A DNA stretch of 48,344 bases from Promethearchaeota archaeon (GCA_048938445.1 JBHLME010000017.1:1-48344); one strand, 5' to 3'; shown: positions 32,158-47,537, numbered from the stretch's first letter. The notes: generated from the sequence alone by a model not told the origin. Numbers and translations are program-made.

Positions 32158-32937
32158 ATGGAATCTATTATTTTAGCTGCAGGATTTGCAAGTCGTTTTA
32201 ATTTTAAGGACTCAACTTTTAAAAAATTCATGCTTCCATTAAGGAATTCTGTTTTGTTGAATTATGTAATGGGAGGAATGTTTATGGCAGGAATCAATAA
32301 AATTAATATAATTATTGATGAAAATGTAGATCAAAGAAGTATTATCGAATCATTCAATAATTTTATAGAAAAATCAAATTTAAACATAAATGAATTAAAG
32401 ATAAACTTTATTCCAAATTTATATCCTGAGAGAGAAAATGGATATAGTTTATTTTTAGGAGTTCGGGAGGTAAAGTCATTATATTTTATCTTATCAATGG
32501 CAGATCATATATTCTCAATAAATGTGTATTTACACTTAATTAATAATTATAATGAGGAGGATGTGGTTTTAGCTACAGATCCAATGGAAATACAAGGAAT
32601 GTATGATTTAGATGATTGTACAAAAGTATTGGGCGAATCCAAACAAATTAAGAATATAGGTAAAAAAATTCCTACATATAATAGACTTGATATGGGAGCT
32701 TTTATTATGAAAACTAGTACTATCAAAGAAAAAGCCCAACAAATCGAGAAAAAATTAAATAATTTCGGTGTTTCTGATATATTATTATCTGCCATAGAAG
32801 AAAATTTAAAAGTGAACTATTTTGATTTTCCGAATACAATATGGATTGATGTTGATAACGAAATTGAATATAATAAAGTAAAAAATACTTTTTACTTATC
32901 TTCTCTCTATAAGCCATTTGAATTAGAATTTGAATAG
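32158..32937 (+). CDS. NTP-transferase, CTP:inositol-1-phosphate cytidylyltransferase (IPCT)-like, stand-alone
   Basis: ILAAG..SR...K, ERENGYSL, MADH, D.TKV......IGK......D.GAF, WIDVD, all matching IPCT as I recall the family. Confidence 0.75.
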   Translation: MESIILAAGFASRFNFKDSTFKKFMLPLRNSVLLNYVMGGMFMAGINKINIIIDENVDQRSIIESFNNFIEKSNLNINELKINFIPNLYPERENGYSLFLGVREVKSLYFILSMADHIFSINVYLHLINNYNEEDVVLATDPMEIQGMYDLDDCTKVLGESKQIKNIGKKIPTYNRLDMGAFIMKTSTIKEKAQQIEKKLNNFGVSDILLSAIEENLKVNYFDFPNTIWIDVDNEIEYNKVKNTFYLSSLYKPFELEFE

Positions 32938-32989
32938 AATTTAATTGTAATTGTCTCCTTTTTAAAGAAAAATTTAAAAATAGTATTAG

Positions 32990-34240
32990 TTAAATTATTT
33001 TTAAAAATTTTAATAATCTTTCTGTAGAATTACCATCAATGTGTTTATGATAAATTTTTTGAGCTTCTTTTCTAAGTGATTCATACTTTTTATCTAATTC
33101 ATCTAAATTTTTAATGCATTCTAATAAACTCTTGCTATTAAAAATAAGTGGCCCTGGAGCAATTTTCTCGAAATCATAATAAAATCCTCTACTATTTTTC
33201 ATAAATTCTTCAAAATCATAAGTAAAGAAAATAATTGGTCGGTTTAACAACAAAAAATCACAATAAACAGAAGAATAATCTGTAATTAATACATTTGAAA
33301 TTATTAATAATTCTTGAATTTCTGAATTTTTATCAACATCAAAAATATTAGAATATAGCTTGAATTCTACTGATTGTTCATACATGTGAGCTTTTGCTAA
33401 TAATACGGCATTTTTTTCAATTAGCAATGTATTTAATTTCATTAGATCCTTTTCAGATAAAGCAAATTTAGCTTTATAAACGAAATCTCTAAAAGTTGGA
33501 GCATATAATAAGATTTTTTTAGTTTGATCGGGAATTTTATATTTTTTCTTAATTTGCTCTTTATAATTATTGTTTTTTGTAAATAATATATCATTCCTAG
33601 GATAACCTGTTGCTAATACTTTCCTTGGAGATATTTGAAAGTATTTTGAAATAAGATGTATGTCTTTTTTAGTACCAGAGGTTGTAATAAAATAGTTAAA
33701 AACATTATTATTTATGATATTTAATCGAAGTAATCTAGCGATTTTGCTATTAGAATATTTAACAGGACCATGTTCTGTAAGATTTCTCTTATTTTGTACT
33801 CCATGCCAAGTCTCTACATAAATGGTATTTTTAGAAAATTCAATTGGTAAAACATCTAAAATACCATGTGTAGTAAAAATGAATTTTGCTTTTTTTAAGA
33901 GCTTAATAGCTTTTAAACTAAATTTAGGAACACAATTATACCCTTTTTTTTTCAATTCTATTATTAGATCTTTGGATTTTGCCAACCATACGAGTTTATA
34001 ATCTGTATTTTTATATATATATTCAAATAAATATTTTGTATTTCCGATAAAAGCAGAACCACCAATAGCGCTCATCACTATTAATTTTTCATCAATATCA
34101 TCTTTAAGAAATTTAGAAAAATATTTTAAAAAAAGAGATATGATAATTTGTTGTATAAAGTAATAAAAATTTGTCCTTTTAATATTTGAATGTCTATTAA
34201 ATAGCTCATTTATAAAAGATAAAATCATTATTAGCATCAC
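32990..34240 (-). CDS. CDP-glycerol glycerophosphotransferase (TagB/TagF) family protein
   Basis: TWHG, TGYPRND, LYAPTFRD, K.H, LITDYSS..D, RPI.F..YD, R.FY, DG.S..R. Start position uncertain. Confidence 0.9.
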   Translation of the reverse strand: MMLIMILSFINELFNRHSNIKRTNFYYFIQQIIISLFLKYFSKFLKDDIDEKLIVMSAIGGSAFIGNTKYLFEYIYKNTDYKLVWLAKSKDLIIELKKKGYNCVPKFSLKAIKLLKKAKFIFTTHGILDVLPIEFSKNTIYVETWHGVQNKRNLTEHGPVKYSNSKIARLLRLNIINNNVFNYFITTSGTKKDIHLISKYFQISPRKVLATGYPRNDILFTKNNNYKEQIKKKYKIPDQTKKILLYAPTFRDFVYKAKFALSEKDLMKLNTLLIEKNAVLLAKAHMYEQSVEFKLYSNIFDVDKNSEIQELLIISNVLITDYSSVYCDFLLLNRPIIFFTYDFEEFMKNSRGFYYDFEKIAPGPLIFNSKSLLECIKNLDELDKKYESLRKEAQKIYHKHIDGNSTERLLKFLKII

Positions 34241-34539
34241 TAATTCTTTTAGAGATTAAATATTATTTATTAATACAATACCATCCTATTTTTAATTAAT
34301 AATTTTAGTAAAGAGATCAATTTATAAGTAATCATTTTTAACCGAATTACAATTCATAAATAACTTTTAATATTTTAACCTATTTTATAATCTGTTTTCT
34401 CCAGTTATCTAAAAGAAGGTCCATTTTTTTTAAAAAAATGTTCAATAATGATGGATATTTCAACTAAAAGTATTTATTACAAATTACGGATTTTGTATTC
34501 ATGAGATTTAATTTAAAAAATAATTGAAAATTAGAAACA

Positions 34540-35601
34540 ATGAATTCAATAAACATAGGAATAATCGGAATTGGTAATTGTGCTTCTGCGTTAATTCAAG
34601 GGATTGAATATTATAAGAATAATAGTAATAATAATGGATTACTTCATCCCTTTCTAGCAGGATTTCATATTTCAGATATAAAAATAGTTGCAGCAGTGGA
34701 TATTTCTAAAAAAAAGATTAGTAAAGACATTGCGGAAGCAATTTATGAAAATGATCTTAATGTAATTGTAGATATAAAAGAAAACTTGAATATTCCAGTG
34801 GTAATGGGAACAGTCTTAGATGGTGTTATTGATGAGACTTCTGAGAGGATTAATCCTGCAAATCAAAAACCAATAAATATGGTAGATTACTTCAAATCGA
34901 CAGGTACTGAAATAGTTTTATGTTTATTACCATCAGGAGCAGATAAAGCTGTTAAATTTTATGCTGAAGAGGCCTTAAGAGCAGGTTGTGGTTTTATTAA
35001 TGCTACACCTACAAATATAGCAAATAACGAAGATTTCGCAGAACGATATAAAAATGCAGGTTTACCATTAATTGGAGATGACTTACAAGACCAATTTGGA
35101 GCAACTATTCTACATAAAATTATTCTACTTCAAATGCTAAATCGAGGGATTAAAATAAAAGAAAGTTATGCCCTCGATGTTGGTGGTGGTTCTGAAAGTT
35201 TAAACACTATTTATAGATCAAGAGAAGTAAAAAGAGAAATAAAAAGTAATTCTGTCGCAGGAGCTTTAAATATTGAAGCACCAATTATTGCTGGGACTTC
35301 TGATTGGGTACCGTTTTTAGGAAATAAAAGAAATTCAATGTTATGGATTGTTGGAAAAGGATTTTTAGGCTCTGAAGTAATTATGGATATTAAAATTCAA
35401 ACAGAGGATGGTCCTAATGGAGGATCAATACTTGTGGATGTAATCCGAGCAACAAAAATTGCACTTAATCAGGGATTATCAGGACCTATTAATGAAATTT
35501 CTGCATATGGATTCAAAAAACCTCCAAAAACGTTTAAAAATCCTGAAGTAGCAATAAGAAATTTAGCTAATTTTATATTGGGTATGAAAAGCGGAGAGTG
35601 A
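34540..35601 (+). CDS. Myo-inositol-1-phosphate synthase-like protein, divergent paralog
   Basis: GIGNCASALIQG, LPSG, FINA.P, GDD..DQ.GAT..H, EDGPN; several canonical motifs are altered. Confidence 0.8.
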   Translation: MNSINIGIIGIGNCASALIQGIEYYKNNSNNNGLLHPFLAGFHISDIKIVAAVDISKKKISKDIAEAIYENDLNVIVDIKENLNIPVVMGTVLDGVIDETSERINPANQKPINMVDYFKSTGTEIVLCLLPSGADKAVKFYAEEALRAGCGFINATPTNIANNEDFAERYKNAGLPLIGDDLQDQFGATILHKIILLQMLNRGIKIKESYALDVGGGSESLNTIYRSREVKREIKSNSVAGALNIEAPIIAGTSDWVPFLGNKRNSMLWIVGKGFLGSEVIMDIKIQTEDGPNGGSILVDVIRATKIALNQGLSGPINEISAYGFKKPPKTFKNPEVAIRNLANFILGMKSGE

Positions 35602-35611
35602 AGAGATTAAT

Positions 35612-36781
35612 ATGAAAACGATTCAAATTTCAAAGCAAGAAAATAATATTGATGAAAAAGAGATTCGAATTGCAATAGCAGGACTAGGAAATTGCGCTTC
35701 AGCGTTAATACAAGGTTTAGAATTTTATAAAAATATTAAAGAAGAGGACATGTATATAAAAGGTTTAATGAATCCTAGTATAGGGGGTTATCTTCCCCGC
35801 CATATTAAAGTGGTTGCTGCTTTTGATGTAGCAAAAACTAAAATTTTCAAGGATATTTCAGAAGCAATCTATGCGGAACCCAATTGTTGTCAAGCAATCA
35901 TAAACCAAAAAGACATGCCTTTTTTAGGAGCAAAATGTTATCCTGGACCAATCTCAGATGGATTATATAAATCTGATGATGGAAAGATCTCTACTTATGA
36001 ATATTTCAAAGCCTATGATGAAAATGAAATTAAACCTGTAGATGTTACCCAAACATTAATTGAAAATCAAGCAGAGATTCTAATTAATTTATTGCCAGTT
36101 GGAAGTTATGAAGCATCACGATTATATGCACAGGCCGCTATAGATGCGGGATGTGGATTTATTAATGCCATTCCAGAATTTATTGTTTCTGAGCAGGTTG
36201 ATGGTGATAAAAATTGGGTAGCTGAATTCGAGAAAAAAGGACTCCCTTGTGCAGGTGATGATATCAAATCCCAAGTTGGAGCAACCCTTACTCATCGCGT
36301 TCTATCAAAAATGTTCTTAGATAGAGGAGTTATCATAACCGATACTTATCAATTAAATATTGGAGGAAATGGAGATTTCTATAACATGAAATCAGAACAG
36401 CGATTAGCAACTAAACGAAAATCTAAAACTTCAGCGGTTGCTTCTGTTCTTCCATATCCCATAAATTGTAGAATTGGACCTAGTGATTATGTCCCTTTTC
36501 TTGAGGATAAAAAAATCTGTTATATTAGAATTGAAGGTAAAACTTATGGAAACTTACCTTTAATGTTAGATTTGAAACTTAGAGTAGAAGATTCGCCTAA
36601 TTCCGCTGGTGTTATACTAGACATAATTCGAGTTATGAAACTCGCATTAGATAGGGGAATATCTGGACGATTGGAAAGTATTAGTTCTTTTAGTTTTAAA
36701 CACCCACATATTCAACCATCATCGGATTTTATAGCAAAAAAATGGGTTGCAGAATTCATAGAAAATAAAAGAGAAAGATAA
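35612..36781 (+). CDS. ino1: Myo-inositol-1-phosphate synthase
   Basis: GLGNCASALIQG, LPVGS, GDDIKSQVGAT..HR, YQLNIGGN.DF.NM...RL..K..SK, GPSDYV, EDSPNSAG, FKHP. Confidence 0.93.
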   Translation: MKTIQISKQENNIDEKEIRIAIAGLGNCASALIQGLEFYKNIKEEDMYIKGLMNPSIGGYLPRHIKVVAAFDVAKTKIFKDISEAIYAEPNCCQAIINQKDMPFLGAKCYPGPISDGLYKSDDGKISTYEYFKAYDENEIKPVDVTQTLIENQAEILINLLPVGSYEASRLYAQAAIDAGCGFINAIPEFIVSEQVDGDKNWVAEFEKKGLPCAGDDIKSQVGATLTHRVLSKMFLDRGVIITDTYQLNIGGNGDFYNMKSEQRLATKRKSKTSAVASVLPYPINCRIGPSDYVPFLEDKKICYIRIEGKTYGNLPLMLDLKLRVEDSPNSAGVILDIIRVMKLALDRGISGRLESISSFSFKHPHIQPSSDFIAKKWVAEFIENKRER

Positions 36782-37850: not shown

Positions 37851-38144
37851 TTTGGTAATAGTTTTATGAAAAATTGAAAAAACTTTTAAGAACAAGGAAT
37901 TTTACTCTCTAAGATTGTTTTATTATTATAATATGATTTAGTTTTAAATATTTTTTATATATATTCTCAGACTTTGAAAAGTAAAATTAATATAAGTTTA
38001 CTAATTTTTATTAAAGCCTTTAGTTGAAACAGACAATATCATTATGTATATACTGAAAGAATTGAATCTACTTAATTTTTAAATAAAGAAAATAAATTAT
38101 TTATATTTCATATGATTATATTTAATTAAATATAATTAAAAGTA

Positions 38145-38393
38145 ATGAGAAAGATGTCCGAAGAAGATCATAAAGTTGAATATACGACTGTATCTATACC
38201 CAAACCATTAGCTGAAAAAATAAAGGATCGAATGAAAGGAACTGGATTTTCTTCAGTTTCAAGTTATGTAACTTATGTTTTAAGACAGGTTTTATCCTCA
38301 ATTGAAGAAGAAGAAAGGTCAAAAGAAGCCTTTACTAAAGAGGAAGAAGAAAAGGTCAAACAACGGTTAAGAGATTTAGGATATATTGATTAA
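38145..38393 (+). CDS. CopG/ribbon-helix-helix transcriptional regulator with an 'EEEEKVKQRLRDLGYID' tail
   Basis: YTTVSIPKPL..KI......GFSSVSSYV.YVLR is an RHH fold pattern. Confidence 0.85.
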   Translation: MRKMSEEDHKVEYTTVSIPKPLAEKIKDRMKGTGFSSVSSYVTYVLRQVLSSIEEEERSKEAFTKEEEEKVKQRLRDLGYID

Positions 38394-38444
38394 CTCTTAA
38401 AAAGGTCCAAAATCGATTCAATTCTTAAATGGAGGTACTTAAAA

Positions 38445-39593
38445 ATGATTCAACCACATGGAGGAAGGTTAATTAATAAAAAATTACCTAAAAGAGAAAT
38501 AGAGAGAGTTAATGAAAATTTTAATGAATTTATACATTTATCTGTTAATAAAACAACCCTAAAAGTTATTAAAAACATATCTAATGGTGTTTTTAGTCCT
38601 TTAGAAGGTTTTATGGTTGAAAATGATTTCATAAATGTTCTGGAGCATATGCATTTAGAGAATGATATACCTTGGTCAATTCCAATAGTTTTAGATGTTT
38701 CTAAAGAAGAAGCTGACTTATTTAAAGTAGGAGATCGTATTATATTATCGAATTCTTCAGATAAGCCTATTGCCCTTATGGATGTTGAAGATACATATAC
38801 ATTTGATAAAAAAAAATATGCTAAAAAAGTATTTGGAACATTAGATAAAGAACATCCGGGTGTACAAAATCTTTTTAATCAAAATGATATATTTATTGGT
38901 GGTGAAATATTTCTCGTGAATGAACCAAAGCCTATTTTTCCCGAATTAGATCTAAAACCAATAGAAACTAGAGTTTTATTTAAAGAAATGAAATGGGATA
39001 AAATTGCAGCTTTCCAAACTAGAAATCCACCACATTTAGGTCATGAATATGTTCAAAAAGCAGCTTTAACTTTCACTGATGGCATCTTTATAAATCCCGT
39101 AATTGGGAAAAAAAAAAATGGAGATTTCCTTGATGAAGTAATTATCAATGCTTATAAAGTACTTATTAAGGAATATTATCCTAAAAATAGGGCGGTATTA
39201 AGTACATTTGAAACAGAAATGCGATATGCCGGACCTAAAGAAGCAATTTTTCATGCGATAGCGAGAAAGAACTTTGGATGTGATTTTATAATCATTGGAC
39301 GAGATCATGCTGGAGTAGGGAATTATTATGGGCCGTATGATGCTCATGAGATTTTTAAGCAATTTCCAGATTTAGGGATAGAACCGATAAAATTCAGGTC
39401 CTTTTCAAAATGTAGTAAATGTGATTCCATTGTTAATGATAAGATTTGTCCTCATCCTCCAGAAATGCAAAACTTTTTTGCAGGAAGAGATATTCGAGAT
39501 GCTTTAATTGCGGGTATTCCCCCCAATTCCGAATTAATGAGGCCAGAAGTGGCAGAAATCATTTTAAAATTTAAAAATCCTTTTGTAACTTAA
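38445..39593 (+). CDS. sat: Sulfate adenylyltransferase (ATP sulfurylase)
   Basis: PHGG.L, SPL.GFM, FQTRNPPH.GH, MRYAGP.EA, GRDHAGVG, MRPEV; GGAGGT RBS at 38431. Confidence 0.97.
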   Translation: MIQPHGGRLINKKLPKREIERVNENFNEFIHLSVNKTTLKVIKNISNGVFSPLEGFMVENDFINVLEHMHLENDIPWSIPIVLDVSKEEADLFKVGDRIILSNSSDKPIALMDVEDTYTFDKKKYAKKVFGTLDKEHPGVQNLFNQNDIFIGGEIFLVNEPKPIFPELDLKPIETRVLFKEMKWDKIAAFQTRNPPHLGHEYVQKAALTFTDGIFINPVIGKKKNGDFLDEVIINAYKVLIKEYYPKNRAVLSTFETEMRYAGPKEAIFHAIARKNFGCDFIIIGRDHAGVGNYYGPYDAHEIFKQFPDLGIEPIKFRSFSKCSKCDSIVNDKICPHPPEMQNFFAGRDIRDALIAGIPPNSELMRPEVAEIILKFKNPFVT

Positions 39594-39616
39594 ATTAATT
39601 TAAGGAGAATGATAAT

Positions 39617-41002
39617 TTGAAAAAAAAGAAAAAAATAATTGTTATAGGATTAGATTGTGCAACTCCTAAAACTTTATTTGAAGATTTTATAAATGAATGC
39701 CCGAACATTAAAAAATTAATGGACGAGGGTGTTTATGGCAAGTTGAGAAGTTCCGATCCTCCTATAACCATTCCTGCATGGATGGTAATGGCAACAAGTA
39801 AAAAAGCAGGAACACTTGGATTATATGGGTTTAGACACCGAAAAGAGAATTCTTATACGGATTTTTGGGTTGCAAGTTCTTATAATATAAAAGAACCGAA
39901 AATCTGGGATATTCTTGGTGAAAAAGGTTTGAAATCTATCATTTTAGGAATACCTCCCACATATCCAATACAAGAGATAAATGGTCACATGGTTTCAGGA
40001 TTCATAACTCCAGATACTTCATCTAATTATACTTATCCTCCAGAGTTAAAAGAAGAAATACAGAATAATATTGGTCAATATATCTTAGATGCTAATTTTC
40101 GAACTGAAAATAAAGCAGATTTACTTGTTGAAATTTATCAAATGACGAAGGTTCAATTTAAAACAATAAAATATTTGCTAAAAAATAAAGAGTGGGATTA
40201 TTGTCAATTTGTCATAATTGGACTTGATAGAATGCATCATGCTTTCTGGAAATATTACGATTCTTCACACGCAAAATATGAACCTAATAACATTTTTGAA
40301 AGCGCCTTGAAAAACTATTATAAATATATAGACGAAGAAGTAGGTGAGATTCTTGATATTATTGAAAAAGAGACAATAGTAATAATTGCATCTGATCATG
40401 GCGCAAAAGCAATGAAGGGATGTATATGCGTGAACACTGCATTGGAAAAGCTAAGATTATTAAGATTTAAAAAACAACCAGAACCAGGGACAAAATTAGA
40501 AGATACTGAAATAGATTGGAATAATACATATGCCTGGGGATGGGGTGGATATTATGCGCGTATTTTTTTAAATGTCCAAGGGAGAGAACCTCAAGGAATC
40601 ATTCCCACAGAAGATTATGAAAAATGGAGAGAAAAAGTTATAAATTCTCTAAAAAGTATTAAAAATCCAGATGGCAAACCAATGAATACAATAATTTACA
40701 AACCTGAAGAATTATATGAGGAATTAAAAGGTGATTATCCTGATTTGATGGTTTATTTCGATGATCTAAATTGGAGATCTGCGGGAACTGTAGGATATGA
40801 TACCATATATCTTGACGAAAATGATACGGGTCCCGATGACGCCGTCCATGATTACTATGGTATTTTTATAATTCATGATACAAATAACAAAATTGGTAAA
40901 AAATTAGAAACTAAAAATATTTTAGATATTGCTCCAACAATTTTAAGCATATTTGGATTTGAAATTCCTAAAGAAATGCAAGGAAAAGTAATTAACTATT
41001 AA
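39617..41002 (+). CDS. Alkaline-phosphatase-superfamily (nucleotide pyrophosphatase/phosphodiesterase-type) enzyme, cytoplasmic
   Basis: IGLD, PPITIPAW (Thr nucleophile), DRMHH, SDHG, H...G, DIAPTIL. No signal peptide; TTG start with AGGAG. Confidence 0.88.
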   Translation: MKKKKKIIVIGLDCATPKTLFEDFINECPNIKKLMDEGVYGKLRSSDPPITIPAWMVMATSKKAGTLGLYGFRHRKENSYTDFWVASSYNIKEPKIWDILGEKGLKSIILGIPPTYPIQEINGHMVSGFITPDTSSNYTYPPELKEEIQNNIGQYILDANFRTENKADLLVEIYQMTKVQFKTIKYLLKNKEWDYCQFVIIGLDRMHHAFWKYYDSSHAKYEPNNIFESALKNYYKYIDEEVGEILDIIEKETIVIIASDHGAKAMKGCICVNTALEKLRLLRFKKQPEPGTKLEDTEIDWNNTYAWGWGGYYARIFLNVQGREPQGIIPTEDYEKWREKVINSLKSIKNPDGKPMNTIIYKPEELYEELKGDYPDLMVYFDDLNWRSAGTVGYDTIYLDENDTGPDDAVHDYYGIFIIHDTNNKIGKKLETKNILDIAPTILSIFGFEIPKEMQGKVINY

Positions 41003-41019
41003 ATACAAATGATGTAGAG

Positions 41020-41553
41020 ATGGAACATAAAGGATTTACGCTATGGTTTACAGGTTTAGCATGTTCAGGTAAAACTGTATTAGCTGATGCTGTTGCTGAG
41101 GAATTACGGAAGAAAGGTATGAATGTGGAAAGACTTGATGGTGATATAGTTCGAAAAAACCTTACAAAAGACCTGGGTTACTCTGATAAAGATAGAAGAA
41201 TGAACATAGAAAGAGTAACTTTTGTAGCTAAACTTTTAACACGTAATGGTGTAGCTGTACTAGCTTCTTTTATATCACCATTTAACGATATTAGAGCTTA
41301 CTCTCGAGAGGAAATCGGTGATTTTATTTTAGTCTATGTAAAATGTTCTCTTCAAGAATGTGAAAATAGGGATGTTAAAGGAATGTACGCTAAAGCTAGA
41401 GCGGGGGAGATTAAGGAATTTACTGGAATTGATTCTCCCTTTGAAGAGCCCGATACTGCAGATATTATCGTTGAATCTGACAAGCAAACTATTGATGAAA
41501 GTAAAAATATTATTCTAAATGCATTAGATAAAATGGGTTATCTCCCCAATTAA
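41020..41553 (+). CDS. cysC: Adenylyl-sulfate kinase
   Basis: WFTGL..SGKT, LDGD, SFISP, RD.KG.Y.KA..G.I..FTGIDSPFE.P. Confidence 0.96.
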   Translation: MEHKGFTLWFTGLACSGKTVLADAVAEELRKKGMNVERLDGDIVRKNLTKDLGYSDKDRRMNIERVTFVAKLLTRNGVAVLASFISPFNDIRAYSREEIGDFILVYVKCSLQECENRDVKGMYAKARAGEIKEFTGIDSPFEEPDTADIIVESDKQTIDESKNIILNALDKMGYLPN

Positions 41554-41663: not shown

Positions 41664-42590
41664 TTATTTCAAAATTTCCATTACTTTTTTTTTTAAATTA
41701 TCTATATTTAAACCGTAGGCATCTAATAATACTGAAGTCTTTCCAGAAACCACAAAGGTATCATTTATCCCAATAAATTTCATAACTTTAGGTGATTTTT
41801 CAGAAATTATTCGTGCTAAAATACTCCCAATACCACAATAAATATTATGTTCTTCAATAACTATAATCCCTTTAACTTCTTCTATATTAAGAAGTAGTTT
41901 CTCTATGTTAATTGGTTTAATTTTGGATAGATTTATAACTTTAATTGAAATATTTAATTCTTTCTCTATTAATGGAGCGGAGTGATGAGCTAATATTGCA
42001 CCATAACCTGATCCAATGAAACATATATCATTTCCTTTTTTTAACAGATCAATATTCTCATCAGAAAAAACATAATCAATATCATGGATTCGCGAAAATA
42101 TTCCACGCGGTAATCTCATATAAATTGGACCTTCATTATTAAAAGCATAATCTAACATCTGTTCTAATTCTAGGTCATCTGCTGGAATAAGAATTGTTAA
42201 ATTGGGAAGAGATGCCATTAAACTTAAATCTTCAAGAGCATGATGTGTACTCCCATCTTCTCCTACAATACCACCATGAGTTGTAATTATTTTTACATTC
42301 AAATTATCATGACATGCTAATCGTATAAATTCCCATGCCCTACCTGTTGTGAATATTGTAAATCCACTTACAACGGGAATTTTTCCAGAAATGGAAAAAC
42401 CTAACGCTGTACCAACCATATTTTGTTCAGCAATACCCATATTAAAAAATCTATCTGGAAAGGATTTAGCAAATTGTGATGTTCTAGTAGAACTTGAGAG
42501 ATCAGCATCGAGAACAATTATATCTTTATTTTTTTTTCCATATTCAACTAATAAATCGCCAAATTTATCTCTTAAGGCTATTTCAGTCAA
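41664..42590 (-). CDS. Transketolase, C-terminal subunit
   Basis: DADL..ST, GIAEQNM, RAWE..R, GEDG.THH..ED, Y.R..R, EEH...G.GS. The TTG start abuts the upstream stop. Confidence 0.93.
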   Translation of the reverse strand: MTEIALRDKFGDLLVEYGKKNKDIIVLDADLSSSTRTSQFAKSFPDRFFNMGIAEQNMVGTALGFSISGKIPVVSGFTIFTTGRAWEFIRLACHDNLNVKIITTHGGIVGEDGSTHHALEDLSLMASLPNLTILIPADDLELEQMLDYAFNNEGPIYMRLPRGIFSRIHDIDYVFSDENIDLLKKGNDICFIGSGYGAILAHHSAPLIEKELNISIKVINLSKIKPINIEKLLLNIEEVKGIIVIEEHNIYCGIGSILARIISEKSPKVMKFIGINDTFVVSGKTSVLLDAYGLNIDNLKKKVMEILK

Positions 42591-43451
42591 TTAAAAATTT
42601 CCCTCCTTTACTTCTGTCTTTAAAAAATGAAGTTCTCCCATTGCTGCTTCAAATTCCTCTTTATTTGGGGGTCTTCCATGAAAAAAACGAGTATGCTCCA
42701 TAAATGACACATCAGCACCCTTTACGAGATATGAGATGATGATTTTAGGTTTTTTAATAATTTTCTTGGATTTATTAAAAGTTTTGATAAGTTCAGACAA
42801 ATTTGAACCATCTACTTCAAGAATTTCCCATCCAAAAGATTTCCATTTTGAAGCCAATGGTTCTAAAGCCATTACTTCTTCCGTGGAGCCATCAATTTGA
42901 AATCCATTCCTATCTACGATAGCTATTAAATTATCTAATTTATAATGGGCTGCTGACATTGCTGCTTCCCATATTGCTCCTTCATTTAATTCTCCATCTC
43001 CTAAAAGAATATAAACACATTTCTCATTATTTTTTTCTAATTTAGCCGATAATGCACATCCAATTCCAATAGATAATCCCATACCTAATGAACCTGTGCT
43101 TATATCAATCCCTAATTTTCCATTTTTCATTGGATGGCCTTGTAGATCAGAATTAAAGTGTCTGAAAGTTTTTAATTTTTCTTTGGAAATATAACCTAAT
43201 TTTGAAAGGACAGCATATAATGCTGGAGCAGCATGACCCTTGCTTAATATAAAAAAATCTCGTCCACTCCATTGAGGATCATCCTGTTTTAACTTTAGAA
43301 TCTTTTTATATAGGATATAAATTAAATTTGCACAAGAAAGAGAGCCACCTGGATGACCAGATTGTGAATTATAGATCATCTTGAGAATATCTTCCTTGAT
43401 ATCAAGTATATCTAACATTAATTGTTTTTCTTCTTTTTCTGATAATTTCAT
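42591..43451 (-). CDS. Transketolase, N-terminal (TPP-binding) subunit
   Basis: SGHPGGSLS, LSKGHA, LQGHP, STGSLG.G, GDGEL.EG..WEA, D.N..Q.DG, HG. Probable start is ATG 43451, not 43610. Confidence 0.93.
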   Translation of the reverse strand: MKLSEKEEKQLMLDILDIKEDILKMIYNSQSGHPGGSLSCANLIYILYKKILKLKQDDPQWSGRDFFILSKGHAAPALYAVLSKLGYISKEKLKTFRHFNSDLQGHPMKNGKLGIDISTGSLGMGLSIGIGCALSAKLEKNNEKCVYILLGDGELNEGAIWEAAMSAAHYKLDNLIAIVDRNGFQIDGSTEEVMALEPLASKWKSFGWEILEVDGSNLSELIKTFNKSKKIIKKPKIIISYLVKGADVSFMEHTRFFHGRPPNKEEFEAAMGELHFLKTEVKEGNF

Positions 43452-43470
43452 GAGATATTGGGGTAATAAT

Positions 43471-44475
43471 TTATTTTTTATGCTGTTTTGAAGAAATAAA
43501 ATTTTTAAGCCTTTCAGGATTATAAAAATTGACGGGGGGAAGTGAAGCAGTGAGTGCCGCAGAATACATTGAGATTTTAACCGAATCAGATATAGGAATT
43601 TTCGATGCATATGAAAGTCCTAATGTTGCCATAATAACACTTCCTACAGCTACGTAACTACGGATTTTATCTTCTAAAATAGGATTAAATTTTTCCATTC
43701 TTTCGCTATTTTTATTAAAGAGATACGAATCTGATTCTAAAAAGCTTAATAGAACATTTTTTGATTTTGATGAATTTATGATTTTCTTACCAGCTATAGA
43801 AACACTAGTATCAGTACAACAATCAATTAAAAAAACTTCTAAAGCTTTTTGAAGATTAATTTTTATTAAATCAATCTCTTCATATATATAATAGTTAGAT
43901 AAATTAGGACGAGCTATAATTGGAATATTAGGATAATGTTCTTTTAGAATAATTAATAATCGCTGGATAAATTGATCTGTAAATAATTCACCTATTCCAT
44001 AATCAAGAATGATAATACTATCAATATCATTTTTTTGGGATGCAGTTTTTATTACATCAAATAACTTCTGAATTGTTGATTTTTGAATATCTGAAGTATA
44101 ATCCGTTTCCAATCTTAGCAAATGTTGATTTCTCGCTTTTATTTTCGTAATTTGAGGTGTTTTTATATCTTTATCTACAACAATTCCAGAAACACTGATA
44201 TCTAATTCAATCATTTTTTTTATGAAAAAATTTCCTTCAAAATCATCTCCTACTATGGTACATACAACTGGTAATCCACCTAAAGATTTAACATATTTTA
44301 TGACACGTCCGATTCCACCTAAGAAAGCCCCTCTTTTATCAACTTTTACACAAGGAACGGGCGCATCTGGAGAAATTGTTTCCGCACGACCATATAAGTA
44401 AAGATCAACAAGAGCTTCTCCAATGATTAATACTTTTTTATCCTTCCATTGTTCTATTTCTTCGATAAGATTCAT
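43471..44475 (-). CDS. RfaE/HldE domain I-like (PfkB fold) protein with degenerate catalytic motifs
   Basis: IGE..VD.Y.YG....ISPDAPVP, GG, TIVGDD..G, K......Q.LLR, DY..G. The expected DxxGAGD reads SYVAVGS. Confidence 0.8.
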   Translation of the reverse strand: MNLIEEIEQWKDKKVLIIGEALVDLYLYGRAETISPDAPVPCVKVDKRGAFLGGIGRVIKYVKSLGGLPVVCTIVGDDFEGNFFIKKMIELDISVSGIVVDKDIKTPQITKIKARNQHLLRLETDYTSDIQKSTIQKLFDVIKTASQKNDIDSIIILDYGIGELFTDQFIQRLLIILKEHYPNIPIIARPNLSNYYIYEEIDLIKINLQKALEVFLIDCCTDTSVSIAGKKIINSSKSKNVLLSFLESDSYLFNKNSERMEKFNPILEDKIRSYVAVGSVIMATLGLSYASKIPISDSVKISMYSAALTASLPPVNFYNPERLKNFISSKQHKK

Positions 44476-44550
44476 TTTTAATGGGATTAAGTGATATCAA
44501 TTGATTTTTTTCATTTTTGATTGTATTTAAGATTATTTAAATAACAAGAA

Positions 44551-45093
44551 TTATATATTTTTGGCAAATTCTAATAGATCCTTATATATTAAATCTGGAA
44601 TGATTTCTTTGATCTTTTTTTTTTCTTCTGAACCATATCCTGTAAGAACTAATACAGTCTTACAATTAGCATTATATCCCGCTTTTATGTCATTTAAAGT
44701 ATCTCCTATCATATATGATTCTTTTAAATCAATCTTATATTTTTCTTTAGCATTTAAAATCATTCCTGGTTTTGGTTTTCTACAATCGCATTCACCTGTA
44801 AAATCAGGGTGGTGAGGACAATAGTAAATATCATCTAAAAAAATATTTTCATATTCTAAAAGATTCTTCATTTTACGGTGTATAGAATTTAAATTTTCTA
44901 TGGTAAAATAACCTCTAGCGATTCCAGCTTGATTTGTTATAAGTATTAATAGAAATCCTTTTTGTTTTAAAATTTTAAGTGCTTCTATAACACCTTCGAT
45001 TAATTTAAAATCATCTGGATTTGAAAGATAATTCATTTCTTCATTAATTACGCCATCTCGGTCTAAAAAAATTGCTTTATTAACCTCAGTCAT
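44551..45093 (-). CDS. gmhB: D-glycero-D-manno-heptose 1,7-bisphosphate phosphatase
   Basis: FLDRDGVIN, TNQ.GIARG, CPHHP...C.CRKP.PGM, IGD...D. ATG 45093 overlaps the rpe stop. Confidence 0.92.
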   Translation of the reverse strand: MTEVNKAIFLDRDGVINEEMNYLSNPDDFKLIEGVIEALKILKQKGFLLILITNQAGIARGYFTIENLNSIHRKMKNLLEYENIFLDDIYYCPHHPDFTGECDCRKPKPGMILNAKEKYKIDLKESYMIGDTLNDIKAGYNANCKTVLVLTGYGSEEKKKIKEIIPDLIYKDLLEFAKNI

Positions 45094-45724
45094 GATATTC
45101 AATTTCTTTAAGTTTTTGAATCACTTTATTTGGATTTTCTGCTTTTAAAATTGTACTAGAACTGCTTACAATATCAGCATTAATGAATCCTGCATTTTTT
45201 AGATTTATACCCCCATCAATATCAATCAAGAAACCCATTTTCATATATGCTCTATAAGCAATTAACAAATCTACTTTATCAATTGATTCCCAAATAAAAT
45301 CTTGCCCGGACCATCCGGGATTAACCGACATTATCAAAACAAGGTCCAGATCATTTAAAAATGGCATAATTTTTGTTAAAGGAGTTTCGGGATTTATCGC
45401 AATTCCTACTTGTCTTTTATGATACTTGACTTTTTTTATTAACTCTTCTTTATTTCCCTTAGATTCAAAGTGAAATACAAAAAAATCTACATCATCGATA
45501 ATTCTATTAACAAATTTTATTGGTTCATCAACCATCAAGTGAGCTATTATAGGTAAATCATATTTTGCCTTTATCTGCTTCAAAACATTAGTATTAAGAT
45601 TTTTAGATTCCACAAACTTGCCATCCATAAAATCCACGTGGATGTAATCAAGACCATCTAAATTTTCTATTATATCTGGATCAAATCTATCGATCGCATG
45701 GATCGACACAGCTACTCTCTTCAT
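45086..45724 (-). CDS. rpe: Ribulose-phosphate 3-epimerase family protein
   Basis: H.D.MDG.FV, HLM, H.E, NP.TP, MSVNPG..GQ, IDGGIN. Confidence 0.88.
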   Translation of the reverse strand: MKRVAVSIHAIDRFDPDIIENLDGLDYIHVDFMDGKFVESKNLNTNVLKQIKAKYDLPIIAHLMVDEPIKFVNRIIDDVDFFVFHFESKGNKEELIKKVKYHKRQVGIAINPETPLTKIMPFLNDLDLVLIMSVNPGWSGQDFIWESIDKVDLLIAYRAYMKMGFLIDIDGGINLKNAGFINADIVSSSSTILKAENPNKVIQKLKEIEYHD

Positions 45725-45730
45725 GTATTC

Positions 45731-46297
45731 TTAATCAAACAATTCTTTTTCTACTAAATAACAAATTATATGTCCTACAGTAATATGTCCTTCTTGAATA
45801 CGAGGAGTATCTATAGAAGGAATTTTAAGACAATAATCAACTATTTTTTCTATTTTATTCTCTTTTTGACCTGTAAATCCGATGGTTATTGCACCCAATT
45901 CTTTTGCTTTAACTAAACCTTTTATCACATTTGGAGAATTTCCAGACGTGCTAAGACCAATTACGATATCACCTTGATTAACAAATGATGATACTTGTCT
46001 TTCAAAAATCAAATCATATCCAAAGTCATTTGCCGTTGCAGTAACGACAGACGTATTGGTATGAAATGCTAGAGCAGGTAAAGATTCACGATCTTTATAA
46101 AACTTACCAACAAATTCAGCAGCTATGTGTTGAGCATCTGCAGCACTTCCACCATTCCCAAATAGAATAACTTTTTTCTTTTTCTTATATGCATTTATTA
46201 TTTCAACTGAAATCTTTTCTATTAAAGCAGCTTCATTCTTAATTTCTTGAATAATAAATGCTGTTTTCTCCAAACTTGTAATAATTTCCTCTTTCAT
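45731..46297 (-). CDS. gmhA: Sedoheptulose-7-phosphate isomerase
   Basis: GNGGSAADAQHIAAE, NDFG...F.RQ, STSGNS.N, T.RIQE.H...H. Alternative GTG start at 46306. Confidence 0.95.
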   Translation of the reverse strand: MKEEIITSLEKTAFIIQEIKNEAALIEKISVEIINAYKKKKKVILFGNGGSAADAQHIAAEFVGKFYKDRESLPALAFHTNTSVVTATANDFGYDLIFERQVSSFVNQGDIVIGLSTSGNSPNVIKGLVKAKELGAITIGFTGQKENKIEKIVDYCLKIPSIDTPRIQEGHITVGHIICYLVEKELFD

Positions 46298-46348
46298 ATT
46301 ATTCACAATAATTATTTAGTATATCTTCTATCCACATTGGTTGTATAT

Positions 46349-47350
46349 TTACCAAACTTCTACACCTTTAGGATTAAAATGAAAATTTATTATGGTACCT
46401 CCGATCTTTTTAAGTTCCTCAATAACAGTATATTTCTTATCTGGATCTGAAAACAATAGTAAATGGCCACCACCTCCCGCACCAAGTAACTTTCCTCCCA
46501 ATACACCATATTTTCTTGAAGTTAAATAAAAATTTTCTATGGCTTTATTTGAGATTTTTGTACTTAAACTTTTCTTCGCTAACCAACCTTTATGAAGTAA
46601 TTTTCCAAATTCATTCAATTTGTCAATATTGTTAGACTCGACAATTTGCCTCATTGAATGGGCAACATCTTTTAAGTCTTGCATTGACTCCATATATGAT
46701 TTTTTTTCTATTTCATATCCTTTTAATACATCATCTTGAATATCTGAAGAAAAATGAGAACCACCAATATAACATAGAATCAATCTATAATGTAATTCAT
46801 TCATTAAATCTTCTGATGTTAGAATAGGTGATACTTTTACATCCTTTGTAAATTCTATGAAATTAAATCCCCCATAAGCCGCAGCATACTGATCTTGATA
46901 GCCACCTTTCTGTTTTAATTCAATACGTTCAATTTCATATGCTTTTTGAGCAATTTCATGTTTTGAAAGACCTAATTTATAATAATTATTAAAAGCGGCA
47001 AGCACTGCAACTGATAAAGTAGATGATCCTCCCATTCCAGAGCCTGAAGGTAATTCAGAATAGGTAATAATATCAAAACCATTTTTAATATCTAAAACAT
47101 TGACTATCCCCTTGAATATCTCAAAACCATTATTATAATTAGTATCACCAATATCAAAAACAATTTCATTATTAAAATCGATAGAATTTACACGAATTTT
47201 ATTATCAGTTCTTTGCTTTATTGAAACGTAAATATGTCTATCGATTGTAGTGCTTATTACACACCCTCCATATTCTATGCAATATGGGGCCATATCTGTT
47301 CCACCCCCTCCAAAACTTACCCGAAATGGTGCTTTTGAACGTATAATCAT
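46349..47350 (-). CDS. hddA: D-glycero-alpha-D-manno-heptose 7-phosphate kinase (GHMP family)
   Basis: RSKAP.R.SFGGGGTD, P.GSG.GGSS, GG.QDQYA.AYGGFN, W..KK.L...ISN, GKLLGAGGGG. Confidence 0.88.
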   Translation of the reverse strand: MIIRSKAPFRVSFGGGGTDMAPYCIEYGGCVISTTIDRHIYVSIKQRTDNKIRVNSIDFNNEIVFDIGDTNYNNGFEIFKGIVNVLDIKNGFDIITYSELPSGSGMGGSSTLSVAVLAAFNNYYKLGLSKHEIAQKAYEIERIELKQKGGYQDQYAAAYGGFNFIEFTKDVKVSPILTSEDLMNELHYRLILCYIGGSHFSSDIQDDVLKGYEIEKKSYMESMQDLKDVAHSMRQIVESNNIDKLNEFGKLLHKGWLAKKSLSTKISNKAIENFYLTSRKYGVLGGKLLGAGGGGHLLLFSDPDKKYTVIEELKKIGGTIINFHFNPKGVEVW

Positions 47351-47537
47351 ATTTCCTTTATTTTTTTTACAACTGAATTATTAAGTTCTTTCTGCTATTT
47401 AAAATTGATTTTAAATAAATTTTTGGTAGAATATAGATTACTTAATAGATAATTCTTTCAAATTCTTTATTTTTAATTAAATATTTATATTATCAAATTC
47501 AGATTGAATGTATAAAAAGAGAAAATCAATTTATACA

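What the first reader, a model, noticed from the sequence alone, without database searches (positions are those of the whole stretch)
38145..41553. PAPS-synthesis operon with an AP-superfamily enzyme and no canonical sulfotransferase or reductase
Seen: RHH-sat-NPP-like-cysC are tightly linked (51, 23 and 17 nt gaps) inside a glycan region, with no cysH, apr or P-loop sulfotransferase in the window. The AP-family protein is cytoplasmic with a Thr nucleophile and a full metal-ligand set, and lacks the CxPxR sulfatase motif. Established: Sat plus CysC make PAPS, and AP-superfamily members include transferases acting through Thr intermediates (LtaS, EptA). Inference: this enzyme is a non-canonical PAPS/APS-dependent sulfotransferase for glycans or lipids, or a PAPS/PAP-recycling hydrolase.
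Basis: partly seen in the sequence, partly recalled or inferred. Interest (0 to 1): 0.7.

Follow-up and report, generated by a model that had tools for sequence, protein, structure and literature searches.

The report
Candidate new sulfotransferase in PAPS operon
An Asgard archaeon carries a four-gene module that activates sulfate, and the uncharacterised phosphatase-like enzyme wedged between the two activating enzymes is most likely the step that puts the sulfate onto a sugar-containing molecule, which would be a new way of doing this common reaction.

Summary
RHH (38145-38393), Sat (38445-39593), a 461-aa NPP-like alkaline-phosphatase-superfamily (AP) protein (39617-41002) and CysC (41020-41553) form one co-directional cassette in an Asgard glycan region. 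The AP protein is cytoplasmic, has a Thr nucleophile and full metal-ligand set, and lacks the sulfatase motif.

The link to sulfate activation is far beyond chance:
- 55 of 56 AP-positive Asgard genomes have Sat.
- 61 of 80 metagenome loci have Sat and/or CysC beside the gene.
- All 120 best longer homologues are Sat-AP fusions.

The PAP-recycling reading is disfavoured: 15 of 109 cassettes also encode a homologue of the characterised PAP phosphatase MtPAPP. The sulfotransferase reading is favoured but unproven (about 0.45):
- 0 of 109 AP-containing sat/cysC loci have a canonical sulfotransferase nearby, against 7 of 18 AP-less loci.
- One AP-less operon type has a mini-sulfotransferase in the AP slot.
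- Neighbours are glycan genes, never assimilatory ones.
- Halobacterium Agl30/Agl31 (2025) are sulfatase-like AP-superfamily sulfotransferases.

The main rival is a pyrophosphatase that pulls the Sat reaction (about 0.2). The genome does hold one canonical sulfotransferase elsewhere. No paper found describes this family.

The parts
37896..38144 (+). AT-rich leader between the divergent FkbM methyltransferase gene and the RHH gene. It is the presumed promoter/operator region of the cassette.
   Evidence: No inverted repeat stands out from the AT-rich background, so the operator is inferred, not shown.
38145..38393 (+). Small RHH-like protein (82 aa): an N-terminal ribbon-helix-helix-like region, an acidic linker and a conserved C-terminal RLRxLGY[IL]D tail. 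It is the likely regulator of the sulfation module.
   Evidence: No Pfam or NCBIfam hit. It is 81-91% identical in five Asgard loci. 94 related small ORFs were found in fetched loci, including ahead of AP-less Sat-CysC operons and ahead of AP genes without Sat or CysC nearby.
38445..39593 (+). ATP sulfurylase (Sat), with PUA-like and catalytic domains.
   Evidence: PF14306 and PF01747. NF003166 483.9 bits against a cut-off of 387.
39617..41002 (+). Cytoplasmic NPP-like alkaline-phosphatase-superfamily enzyme (461 aa). It has a Thr51 nucleophile, a two-metal site and an inserted cap of about 120 residues. It is the candidate PAPS-consuming sulfotransferase.
41020..41553 (+). APS kinase (CysC).
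   Evidence: PF01583 200.4 bits. TIGR00455 229.3 bits against a cut-off of 138.7.

Best explanation
The cassette is a self-contained sulfation module.

1. Sat makes APS from sulfate and ATP.
2. CysC phosphorylates APS to PAPS.
3. The NPP-like AP-superfamily enzyme uses PAPS as donor and transfers the sulfuryl group to a conserved cytoplasmic acceptor. The acceptor is most likely a nucleotide sugar or a lipid-linked glycan intermediate. PAP is released.
4. PAP is then removed by an MtPAPP-type DHH phosphatase (encoded in the same operon in some lineages) or by a CysQ-like enzyme elsewhere.

In CysC-less lineages the donor would be APS. The RHH protein regulates the module, and in many loci a TauE permease beside it probably supplies sulfate.

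By analogy with the superfamily, the chemistry would go through Thr51 at the two-metal site as a covalent sulfo-threonine intermediate, with the inserted cap closing the site against water.

Shown: gene identities, the conserved catalytic set, the NPP-like fold, the genomic and fusion link to Sat/CysC, and the glycan context.
Inferred: the reaction, the donor, the covalent intermediate and the acceptor.
For: 1. Linkage.
- All five Asgard loci with flanks keep RHH-Sat-AP-CysC in the same order.
- 55 of 56 genomes with a strong AP orthologue have Sat, out of 201 Asgard genomes sampled.
- 61 of 80 metagenome loci have Sat and/or CysC within 2.5 kb, and 36 have both.
- Identity of AP and Sat to the window's copies co-varies across 74 loci (r = 0.87).

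2. Fusions.
- Sat-AP, CysC-AP and AP-PK-Sat forms exist.
- All 120 listed longer homologues are Sat-AP fusions.

3. The AP protein is not the PAP phosphatase.
- 15 of 109 AP cassettes also carry a DHH gene.
- The DHH proteins of L065 and L046 match the solved PAP phosphatase 8A8K over their full length (E 3.4e-39 and 4.1e-33). That enzyme is specific for PAP (PMC10322725, passages read).
- A PAP phosphatase in the operon implies a PAP-forming step.

4. Displacement.
- f16 operons read RHH-Sat-DHH-mini sulfotransferase-CysC, while f19 and 10 metagenome loci read Sat-DHH-AP-CysC.
- 0 of 109 AP-containing sat/cysC loci have a canonical sulfotransferase within 6 kb (0 of 52 with at least 5 kb of flank), against 7 of 18 AP-less loci.

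5. Complementarity.
- 32 of 35 Sat-positive, AP-negative genomes have PF13469, against 26 of 56 AP-positive genomes.
- 28 of the 30 AP-positive genomes without PF13469 also lack PF00685.
- Four genomes of the window's own family (94-100% complete) also lack PF01507.
- The PF01507 hits examined elsewhere are not CysH.

6. Context.
- Of the 85 nearest neighbours, none is assimilatory and none is a Sulfotransfer protein.
- They include 8 NDP-sugar epimerases/dehydratases, 5 glycosyltransferases, 3 flippases and 4 TauE permeases.
- AglB lies beside the cassette in L129, and UDP-sugar dehydrogenases, RmlD and Wzz follow it in the bacterial block.

7. Other support.
- The wider family has cytoplasmic paralogues in the same clusters and fusions to GT2, NTP-transferase and methyltransferase domains.
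- In CysC-less f17 (0 of 5 genomes) the protein keeps the catalytic core but has lost three invariant basic residues (R75, R315, R387). This is as expected if they bind the 3'-phosphate.
- Precedent: the AP-superfamily proteins Agl30 and Agl31 sulfate N-glycan sugars in Halobacterium (PMC11980604; abstract, section 17 passages and Discussion read).
Against: - There is no biochemical evidence. To my knowledge (recalled), no PAPS-dependent sulfotransferase with an NPP fold or a Thr nucleophile is known.
- The orthologue group is very uniform, with 106 linked sequences carrying near-invariant R73, R75, R162, K264, R315 and R387. The neighbouring paralogues lack these residues. This would also suit a universal small substrate such as PPi or a nucleotide.
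- Fusion to Sat rather than to CysC, and the AP-PK-Sat form, fit a helper of the Sat reaction at least as well.
- The window's genome has a canonical sulfotransferase that is 50% identical to one found in Sat-CysC-sulfotransferase operons. In addition, 26 of 56 AP-positive genomes have PF13469.
- All five 'clean' genomes checked hold PF00884 sulfatase-like genes, which could be Agl30/31-type transferases.
- 9 of the 28 metagenome loci with good flanks have neither Sat nor CysC nearby.
- The Iainarchaeum protein has CysC yet lacks R73, K264 and R387.
- Soluble PPase (PF00719) is rarer in AP-positive genomes: 14 of 56 against 21 of 35.
- The genomes counted are related to one another, so the counts overstate independence.
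Confidence: 0.45

Rival explanations
1. The enzyme is a dedicated inorganic pyrophosphatase coupled to Sat. It hydrolyses the PPi released by ATP sulfurylase, through phospho-Thr51, and so pulls the very unfavourable APS-forming reaction forward in organisms that keep cytosolic PPi high.
For: - Sat-AP fusions dominate the longer homologues (120 of 120 listed).
- An AP-PK barrel-Sat fusion would combine ATP supply, APS synthesis and PPi removal.
- AP-Sat pairs exist without CysC: family f17 (0 of 5 genomes) and loci L087, L096 and L124.
- Six invariant basic residues would suit a tetra-anion.
- PF00719 is found in 14 of 56 AP-positive genomes against 21 of 35 Sat-positive, AP-negative genomes.
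- PPi removal was rate-limiting for an archaeal ATPS in vitro (PMC10322725, passage read).
- Eukaryotic APS kinase-ATPS-PPase fusions exist (recalled).
Against: - It does not explain why canonical sulfotransferases are missing beside AP cassettes but present beside AP-less ones (0 of 109 against 7 of 18), or why the AP gene sits in the mini-sulfotransferase slot.
- It does not explain why f17, which still has Sat, lost three invariant arginines.
- 14 AP-positive genomes have an ordinary soluble PPase, and within genus g2 there is no correlation.
- A 461-aa enzyme with a 120-residue cap and many invariant aromatic residues is more than PPi would need.
- Related cytoplasmic paralogues and GT2, NTP-transferase and methyltransferase fusions point to glycan chemistry.
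- 9 of 28 well-flanked loci lack Sat nearby.
Confidence: 0.2
2. The enzyme is a nucleotide phosphatase or hydrolase of the PAPS pathway. It could be a PAP 3'-phosphatase (an analogue of CysQ), or a PAPS/APS hydrolase that controls the pool.
For: - The fold is an NPP-like nucleotide-handling fold.
- The enzyme has extra arginines beside the metal site.
- It is tightly linked to CysC and Sat.
- The window's genome has no MtPAPP homologue by tblastn.
- CysQ genes sit in or next to sat/cysC in AP-less lineages: L062 is an Inositol_P-CysC fusion and L064 has a CysQ neighbour.
Against: - The AP gene co-occurs in one operon with MtPAPP homologues in 15 of 109 cassettes, and with Inositol_P genes in L075 and L135. 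Two PAP phosphatases in one operon is unlikely.
- The window's genome has two Inositol_P genes.
- f17 has the AP protein but no CysC, so it has no PAP to remove.
- Hydrolysing APS or PAPS inside the operon that makes them would be futile.
Confidence: 0.1
3. The enzyme does sulfur-independent glycan chemistry and is merely co-regulated with sulfation. Examples would be a nucleotide-sugar pyrophosphatase, or a phospho-group transferase or phosphomutase acting on a sugar phosphate.
For: - Some loci with the full orthologue signature lack Sat and CysC nearby but keep RHH and an NDP-sugar epimerase (L104, L105, L109).
- Relatives lie beside GHMP sugar kinases and glycosyltransferases.
- ENPP3 binds UDP-GlcNAc in a solved structure listed among the matches.
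- Mutases of the superfamily also carry caps.
Against: - It does not explain protein fusions to Sat and to CysC, or 55 of 56 co-occurrence with Sat.
- The Sat/CysC-less contigs are only 7-13 kb long, so the genes may lie elsewhere in those genomes.
Confidence: 0.1

Closest known systems
Agl30 (VNG1056C) and Agl31 (VNG1057C) of Halobacterium salinarum, N-glycan sulfotransferases (PMC11980604)
   Same: They are AP-like-core superfamily proteins from archaea that lie in a glycosylation gene cluster. They have no canonical sulfotransferase fold and a proposed or shown role in sulfating glycan sugars. Like them, the family here can sit next to aglB (L129).
   Different: - The protein here lacks the C/S-x-P-x-R motif.
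- It is encoded between, or fused to, Sat and CysC.
- The donor and mechanism of Agl30/31 are undefined in the paper ('PAPS' occurs 0 times).
- I could not align the sequences directly, because none was available from a tool.
Nucleotide pyrophosphatases/phosphodiesterases (Xanthomonas NPP, ENPP1-7; PF01663)
   Same: Best fold and profile matches. The Thr nucleophile and the six metal ligands are conserved. These enzymes bind nucleotides.
   Different: - The protein here is cytoplasmic, not secreted.
- Identity is only 11-18%.
- It has an inserted cap of about 120 residues.
- The residue after the nucleophile that stacks the base in NPP is I/V here (PSLTFPNH in NPP against PPIT[IV]PAW here). 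The stacking role is recalled.
- It has extra invariant arginines.
- Its genomic partners are Sat and CysC.
Canonical PAPS-dependent sulfotransferases (Sulfotransfer_1/_3)
   Same: They occupy the same genomic niche: in AP-less Asgard loci they follow Sat-CysC or sit between the DHH gene and CysC.
   Different: There is no sequence or fold relation, and no P-loop-like PAPS-binding motif. Canonical enzymes transfer directly, without a covalent enzyme intermediate (recalled).
MtPAPP, the DHH-family PAP phosphatase of Methanothermococcus thermolithotrophicus (PDB 8A8K; PMC10322725)
   Same: It is encoded beside ATPS and APSK genes in archaea, and it is an accessory enzyme of the PAPS pathway.
   Different: The fold is unrelated. 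Its homologues co-occur with the AP gene in the same operon, so the two are not functional equivalents.
LtaS / EptA-type transferases of the AP superfamily
   Different: They are membrane-anchored, extracytoplasmic, sulfatase-like domains that transfer phospho-alcohols from lipids. They are more distant in fold than the NPPs.

Membership tests
Alkaline phosphatase superfamily, NPP/PhnA branch (PF01663) | Profile match over the curated cut-off | tested here: met
   PF01663 148.9 bits against a cut-off of 23, covering residues 8-407.
Alkaline phosphatase superfamily, NPP/PhnA branch (PF01663) | Two-metal ligand set (3 Asp, 3 His) and Thr nucleophile | tested here: met
   D13, D204, H208, D260, H261, H411 and T51 are conserved in 61-66 of 69 diverse homologues (T or S at position 51 in 62 of 69) and in 103-106 of 106 orthologues. 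D13 and T51 align to the Asp and Thr of Xanthomonas NPP.
Alkaline phosphatase superfamily, NPP/PhnA branch (PF01663) | NPP-like fold | tested here: met
   [not shown]
Alkaline phosphatase superfamily, NPP/PhnA branch (PF01663) | Phosphodiesterase / nucleotide pyrophosphatase activity | not testable with these tools
Type I (formylglycine) sulfatases (PF00884) | C/S-x-P-x-R formylglycine motif | tested here: not met
   No such motif occurs anywhere in the 461 residues. The nucleophile position holds Thr.
Type I (formylglycine) sulfatases (PF00884) | Profile match | tested here: inconclusive
   26.0 bits against a cut-off of 25, far below the PF01663 score on the same region.
Canonical PAPS-dependent sulfotransferases (PF00685, PF13469 and relatives) | Profile match or P-loop-like PAPS-binding motif | tested here: not met
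   No Sulfotransfer family at E 0.01 or better. No Walker A or PKxG[TS] motif (the motif pattern is recalled).
AP-superfamily sulfotransferases (Agl30/Agl31 type) | AP-like core, with a genetic or biochemical demonstration of sulfation | not testable with these tools
   The core fold is met. Activity is untested.
AP-superfamily sulfotransferases (Agl30/Agl31 type) | Sulfatase-like branch of the superfamily | tested here: not met
   [not shown]
AP-superfamily sulfotransferases (Agl30/Agl31 type) | Location in a glycosylation gene cluster | tested here: met
   The window is a glycan region. AglB lies beside the cassette in L129, and glycan genes are among the nearest neighbours.
PAP phosphatases (CysQ/Inositol_P; MtPAPP/DHH) | Homology to either family | tested here: not met
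   No PF00459 or PF01368 match. MtPAPP homologues are separate genes in the same operons.
Inorganic pyrophosphatases (family I PF00719; family II DHH) | Homology | tested here: not met
   No match. Functional analogy remains possible and is kept as a rival explanation.

The most novel reading that the evidence does not exclude
The protein founds a mechanistically new class of sulfotransferase: a cytoplasmic NPP-fold, two-metal enzyme that takes the sulfuryl group from PAPS onto a threonine and passes it to a glycan precursor. In CysC-less lineages the donor would be APS. The class would be widespread in Asgard archaea and in bacteria such as Anaerolineae, where it is fused to ATP sulfurylase. 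It would account for 'missing' sulfotransferases in organisms that make PAPS but have no canonical enzyme.
Probability: 0.4. Interest if true: 0.85.

Novelty: new variant of a known kind. Interest (0 to 1): 0.72.

Why it matters
PAPS-dependent sulfation is thought to rest on one enzyme fold. Archaeal sulfotransferases were unknown until two sulfatase-like proteins were identified genetically in 2025, and their donor is still undefined.

The family here is large: 2,800 representative clusters at E 1e-30 or better. It is tied to the PAPS-making enzymes by operon order and by protein fusion. No paper found in the searches run describes it.

If it is the transferase, it would give:
- a direct handle on the donor chemistry of AP-superfamily sulfotransferases;
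- an explanation of how many Asgard archaea and Chloroflexota sulfate their glycans;
- a new biocatalyst scaffold.

If it turns out to be a Sat-coupled pyrophosphatase, that would still be a new solution to the thermodynamic problem of sulfate activation in PPi-economy anaerobes. Either way the question can now be settled with one recombinant protein and three simple assays.

Tried and rejected
1. PAP-phosphatase role: rejected as the leading idea once the DHH neighbours proved to be MtPAPP homologues.

2. PPi:APS 3'-phosphotransferase (AP re-using Sat's PPi to make PAPS): considered because it would explain the Sat-AP fusions and the CysC-less loci. Rejected on thermodynamic grounds, because conserving the PPi bond would no longer pull the roughly +45 kJ/mol Sat reaction (figure recalled).

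3. Assimilatory use of PAPS/APS:
- The genome has no NIR_SIR and no PAPS_reduct over the cut-off.
- The PF01507 hits in other lineages are a PUA-domain family (PRK13795) or score below every cut-off.
- None of the 85 nearest neighbours is assimilatory.

4. RHH as a dedicated partner of the AP protein: dropped, because the same RHH precedes AP-less Sat-CysC operons.

5. Operator search in the leader: only AT-rich low-complexity inverted repeats.

6. Sequence search of the PDB with the single protein: no hit. The profile search gave only distant NPP and PhnA matches.

7. Protein atlas: generic labels only.

8. Literature searches found no description of a PF01663 protein in sat/cysC operons or of Sat-AP fusions. 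Supplements were closed and may hold gene tables I could not see.

No result exists, and I make no claim that the two proteins bind.

10. The PF03567, PF09037 and PF19798 searches found nothing in five genomes, but they also found nothing in any control genome, so those negatives are weak.

11. The first metagenome scan with the 69-sequence alignment failed for lack of conserved stretches. A 14-sequence alignment worked.


Full report
**What is there.**
The window is from an Asgard archaeon. Homologues of the central protein are named Promethearchaeota, Loki-, Hod-, Thor-, Heimdall- and Hermodarchaeota by their sources. The region has about 28% G+C.

Four co-directional ORFs lie at 38145-38393, 38445-39593, 39617-41002 and 41020-41553, separated by 51, 23 and 17 nt and flanked by genes on the other strand.
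- The second ORF is ATP sulfurylase and the fourth is APS kinase, both far above curated cut-offs.
- The third is a 461-aa member of PF01663, the NPP/PhnA branch of the alkaline phosphatase superfamily (148.9 bits). It has a marginal Sulfatase score (26 bits against a cut-off of 25) and no NCBIfam family over its cut-off.
- The first, 82 aa, has no family hit but belongs to a large set of small RHH-like proteins.

Around the cassette lie glycosyltransferases, an ABC-2 exporter, FkbM methyltransferases, a TagF-like glycerophosphotransferase, inositol-phosphate genes and a heptose pathway.

**The enzyme.**
- The metal ligands D13, D204, H208, D260, H261 and H411 and the nucleophile T51 are conserved in 61-66 of 69 diverse homologues (T or S at position 51 in 62 of 69), and in 103-106 of 106 orthologues.
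- A family profile aligns D13 and T51 to the Asp and Thr of Xanthomonas NPP.
- There is no C/S-x-P-x-R motif, no P-loop and no hydrophobic segment. The first strand starts at residue 7, so the protein is cytoplasmic.
- The AlphaFold model is very confident (pLDDT 97.0, pTM 0.94).
- The single sequence finds nothing in the PDB.

**Is the link to sat/cysC real?** Yes.
- All five Asgard loci with flanks from the species-genome collection keep RHH-Sat-AP-CysC in the same order. A sixth, short contig has AP-CysC. A DPANN genome has RHH-AP, then Sat-CysC, then a second AP paralogue.
- In a sample of 201 Asgard genomes, 66 have a match at E 1e-30 or better. I read 56 of them as orthologues (best E 1e-75 or better) and 10 as paralogue-only.
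- 55 of the 56 have Sat. The exception is 75% complete.
- In 80 metagenome loci at 45-69% identity, 61 have Sat and/or CysC within 2.5 kb and 36 have both. Of the 28 loci with at least 2.5 kb on both sides, 19 have at least one, 13 have both and 9 have neither.
- Across 74 loci, identity of AP and of Sat to the window's copies co-varies (r = 0.87; means 55.7% and 56.7%).
- Fusions exist. Among 15 long representatives scanned, I found Sat-AP, CysC-AP, AP-pyruvate-kinase-barrel-Sat, AP-PK, NTP-transferase-AP, AP-GT2, AP-methyltransferase and tandem AP-AP forms.
- All 120 best homologues of 808 aa or more (of 164 at E 1e-20 or better) are PUA_2 + ATP-sulfurylase + Phosphodiest. The named ones are from Anaerolineae.
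- The family is large: 13,131 representative clusters at E 1e-3 or better and 2,800 at E 1e-30 or better.

**What the PAPS is for.**
- The window's genome (96.5% complete, 8.2% contaminated) has no NIR_SIR and no PAPS_reduct over the cut-off.
- It has two Inositol_P genes and no MtPAPP homologue by tblastn.
- It has one canonical sulfotransferase, on contig C97, in a second glycan cluster. That protein is 50% identical to the sulfotransferase that follows Sat-CysC in another Asgard genus.
- Among the 85 ORFs nearest the cassettes in the metagenome loci, none is assimilatory and none is a Sulfotransfer protein. They include 8 NDP-sugar epimerases/dehydratases, 5 glycosyltransferases, 3 Wzx-type flippases, 4 TauE permeases, 2 sulfatase-like proteins and 5 GHMP kinases.
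- Further out lie UDP-sugar dehydrogenases, RmlD and Wzz. In L115 there are GlmU-like genes and GlmS. In L129 the oligosaccharyltransferase AglB lies directly beside the cassette.
- The module therefore serves sulfation of glycoconjugates, not sulfur assimilation.

**Separating the readings.**

(a) PAP phosphatase.
- In the closed genome G038 the operon reads Sat-DHH-AP-CysC. The same order recurs in 10 of 80 metagenome loci. Overall, 15 of 109 AP cassettes carry the DHH gene.
- The DHH proteins of L065 and L046 match the PAP phosphatase of Methanothermococcus thermolithotrophicus (8A8K) over their full length (E 3.4e-39 and 4.1e-33).
- That enzyme is specific for PAP and lies beside the ATPS and APSK genes (PMC10322725, passages read).
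- Inositol_P genes accompany the AP gene in L075 and L135.
- So PAP recycling is already provided, and the presence of a PAP phosphatase implies a PAP-forming step in or near the operon.

(b) Displacement.
- Where the AP gene is absent, sat/cysC is accompanied by one of the following:
  - a canonical sulfotransferase (L053, L054, L055, L057, L058);
  - DHH plus a 195-aa mini-sulfotransferase between Sat and CysC (L046 by Pfam, L047 by colinearity);
  - a CysQ gene (L064), or a CysQ-CysC fusion (L062).
- Counting all fetched sat/cysC loci: 0 of 109 with the AP orthologue have a canonical sulfotransferase within 6 kb (0 of 52 with at least 5 kb of flank), against 7 of 18 without it.
- Two caveats apply. 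Detection used tblastn with three Asgard queries, and the 7 positive loci come from about four lineages.

(c) Phyletic complementarity.
- 32 of 35 Sat-positive, AP-negative genomes have PF13469. The three exceptions are 69-89% complete.
- Only 26 of 56 AP-positive genomes have it, three of them with E above 1e-4.
- Of the 30 AP-positive genomes without PF13469, 28 also lack PF00685.
- 23 of those 30 have PF01507 hits, but that model also hits all 14 control genomes.
- The hits I examined are a PUA-domain family (NF010368, 673 bits; CysH score 80 against a cut-off of 154) or fall below every cut-off.
- Four genomes of the window's own family (94-100% complete) have Sat, CysC and AP but no PF13469, PF00685, PF01507, PF03567, PF17784, PF09037 or PF19798. 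Three of those negatives are weak, because their searches found nothing in any control genome either.
- All five genomes checked hold PF00884 genes, 1 to 8 each. These could be Agl30/31-type transferases, so the argument that no other consumer exists is not closed.
- In addition, 10 genomes of the family have the C97-type sulfotransferase but no Sat.

(d) Pyrophosphatase.
- PF00719 is found in 14 of 56 AP-positive genomes, in 21 of 35 Sat-positive AP-negative genomes and in 90 of 201 overall.
- The trend follows phylogeny and vanishes within genera. In g2, four genomes have both AP and PPase, three have AP only and three have PPase only.

(e) Residue signatures.
- 106 linked orthologues and 9 unlinked ones share a near-invariant set that 15 neighbouring or distant paralogues lack. 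It comprises R73, R75, R162, K264, R315 and R387 and several aromatic residues. All groups keep the catalytic core.
- The paralogues are also cytoplasmic.
- Family f17 has AP-Sat operons and no CysC in any of its 5 genomes (75-83% complete). Its proteins keep R73, R162 and K264. They have R75 changed to I, R315 to Q and R387 to G, and the R323-E324 pair is altered.
- This fits loss of a 3'-phosphate site and use of APS. It is not expected for a PPi site.
- The Iainarchaeum protein has CysC yet lacks R73, K264 and R387, and is a counter-example.

**Precedent and literature.**
- In Halobacterium salinarum, two AP-like-core, sulfatase-like proteins in the aglB cluster, Agl30 and Agl31, sulfate the third and fourth N-glycan sugars. 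This was shown by deletion and by expression in Haloferax volcanii. The donor and mechanism were not addressed. I read the abstract, passages of sections 6 and 17, and the whole Discussion of PMC11980604.
- Seven full-text searches found no description of a PF01663 protein in sat/cysC operons or of Sat-AP fusions. Supplements were closed.

**Verdict.**

The most likely function is the PAPS-consuming sulfuryl transfer of a glycan-sulfation module (about 0.45). The rivals are a Sat-coupled pyrophosphatase (about 0.2), a nucleotide phosphatase or hydrolase (about 0.1) and sulfur-independent glycan chemistry (about 0.1). The remainder is unassigned.

Measured against the 2025 precedent, this is a new variant: a different branch of the superfamily, a Thr nucleophile, and a direct tie to the donor-making enzymes. 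No function is shown, and three assays on one recombinant protein would decide.

Noticed in passing
window 38145-38393 and 94 small ORFs in fetched loci: The RHH-like protein family has no Pfam or NCBIfam hit. It has an acidic linker and a near-invariant C-terminal tail, RLRxLGY[IL]D. It precedes Sat-AP-CysC cassettes, AP-less Sat-CysC cassettes and lone AP genes. Some loci have two tandem copies, one without the acidic linker (L091, L093, L099, L120).
   Followed up: partly
P0153 (1151 aa) and P0210 (786 aa): These are fusions of the AP domain to a pyruvate-kinase barrel domain, in one case followed by ATP sulfurylase. No explanation I considered accounts for them well. ATP regeneration for sulfate activation is one guess.
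   Followed up: no
window 32158-36781: Two tandem genes resemble inositol-3-phosphate synthase (TIGR03450, 242 and 355 bits, below the cut-off of 638). Beside them are an NTP-transferase resembling inositol-1-phosphate cytidylyltransferase (97 bits, below cut-off) and a TagF-like CDP-glycerol glycerophosphotransferase (PF04464, 260.6 bits). This hints at a CDP-inositol- or polyol-phosphate-containing polymer in an Asgard archaeon.
   Followed up: partly
window 41664-48344 (minus strand): A heptose pathway block: split transketolase, an HldE-domain-I-like PfkB kinase, GmhB (210 bits against a cut-off of 178), ribulose-phosphate 3-epimerase, GmhA-like isomerase, an HddA-like GHMP kinase and an NDP-sugar dehydratase. 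The transketolase pair stays next to sat/cysC in several genomes of the same family, with or without the AP gene (L005, L048, L049, L052, L073).
   Followed up: partly
window 42591-43610 (minus strand): The listed ORF overlaps the upstream kinase ORF (43471-44475) by 140 nt, and homologues align only from residue 54 onward. The true start is probably an internal Met.
   Followed up: no
G000:C97:1-13500 (L163): A second glycan cluster surrounds the genome's only canonical sulfotransferase: two GT2 genes, a polysaccharide deacetylase, a hexapeptide acyltransferase, one radical-SAM gene and four tandem B12-binding radical-SAM genes.
   Followed up: partly
L065:12704-16280; L070; L147, L150, L145, L137: Longer cytoplasmic PF01663 paralogues (457-610 aa) lie beside the cassettes or beside GHMP kinases and GT4 genes in soil-type contigs, in the order AP, GHMP kinase, AP2. 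They keep the catalytic core but lack the orthologue-specific arginines. Their function is unknown.
   Followed up: partly
G038:C1 (L164:3263-5203) and relatives: A conserved archaeal protein of about 650 aa has a PUA domain fused to a PAPS-reductase-like domain (NF010368 'hypothetical protein', 673 bits). It explains most PF01507 hits in Asgard genomes and is probably an RNA-modification enzyme, not CysH.
   Followed up: partly
Asgard family f1, 10 genomes (G057, G077, G083, G104, G125, G135, G138, G153, G174, G195): These genomes have a Sulfotransfer_3 gene of the C97 type but no ATP sulfurylase hit (PF01747). Their source of PAPS is unclear.
   Followed up: no
L066-L068 (family f17): In the CysC-less lineage, the AP-Sat pair is followed by a 430-448-aa FG-GAP beta-propeller protein in L066 and L067 (not in L068). 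In all three loci it lies near PGI-like SIS, NTP-transferase or GT2 genes.
   Followed up: no
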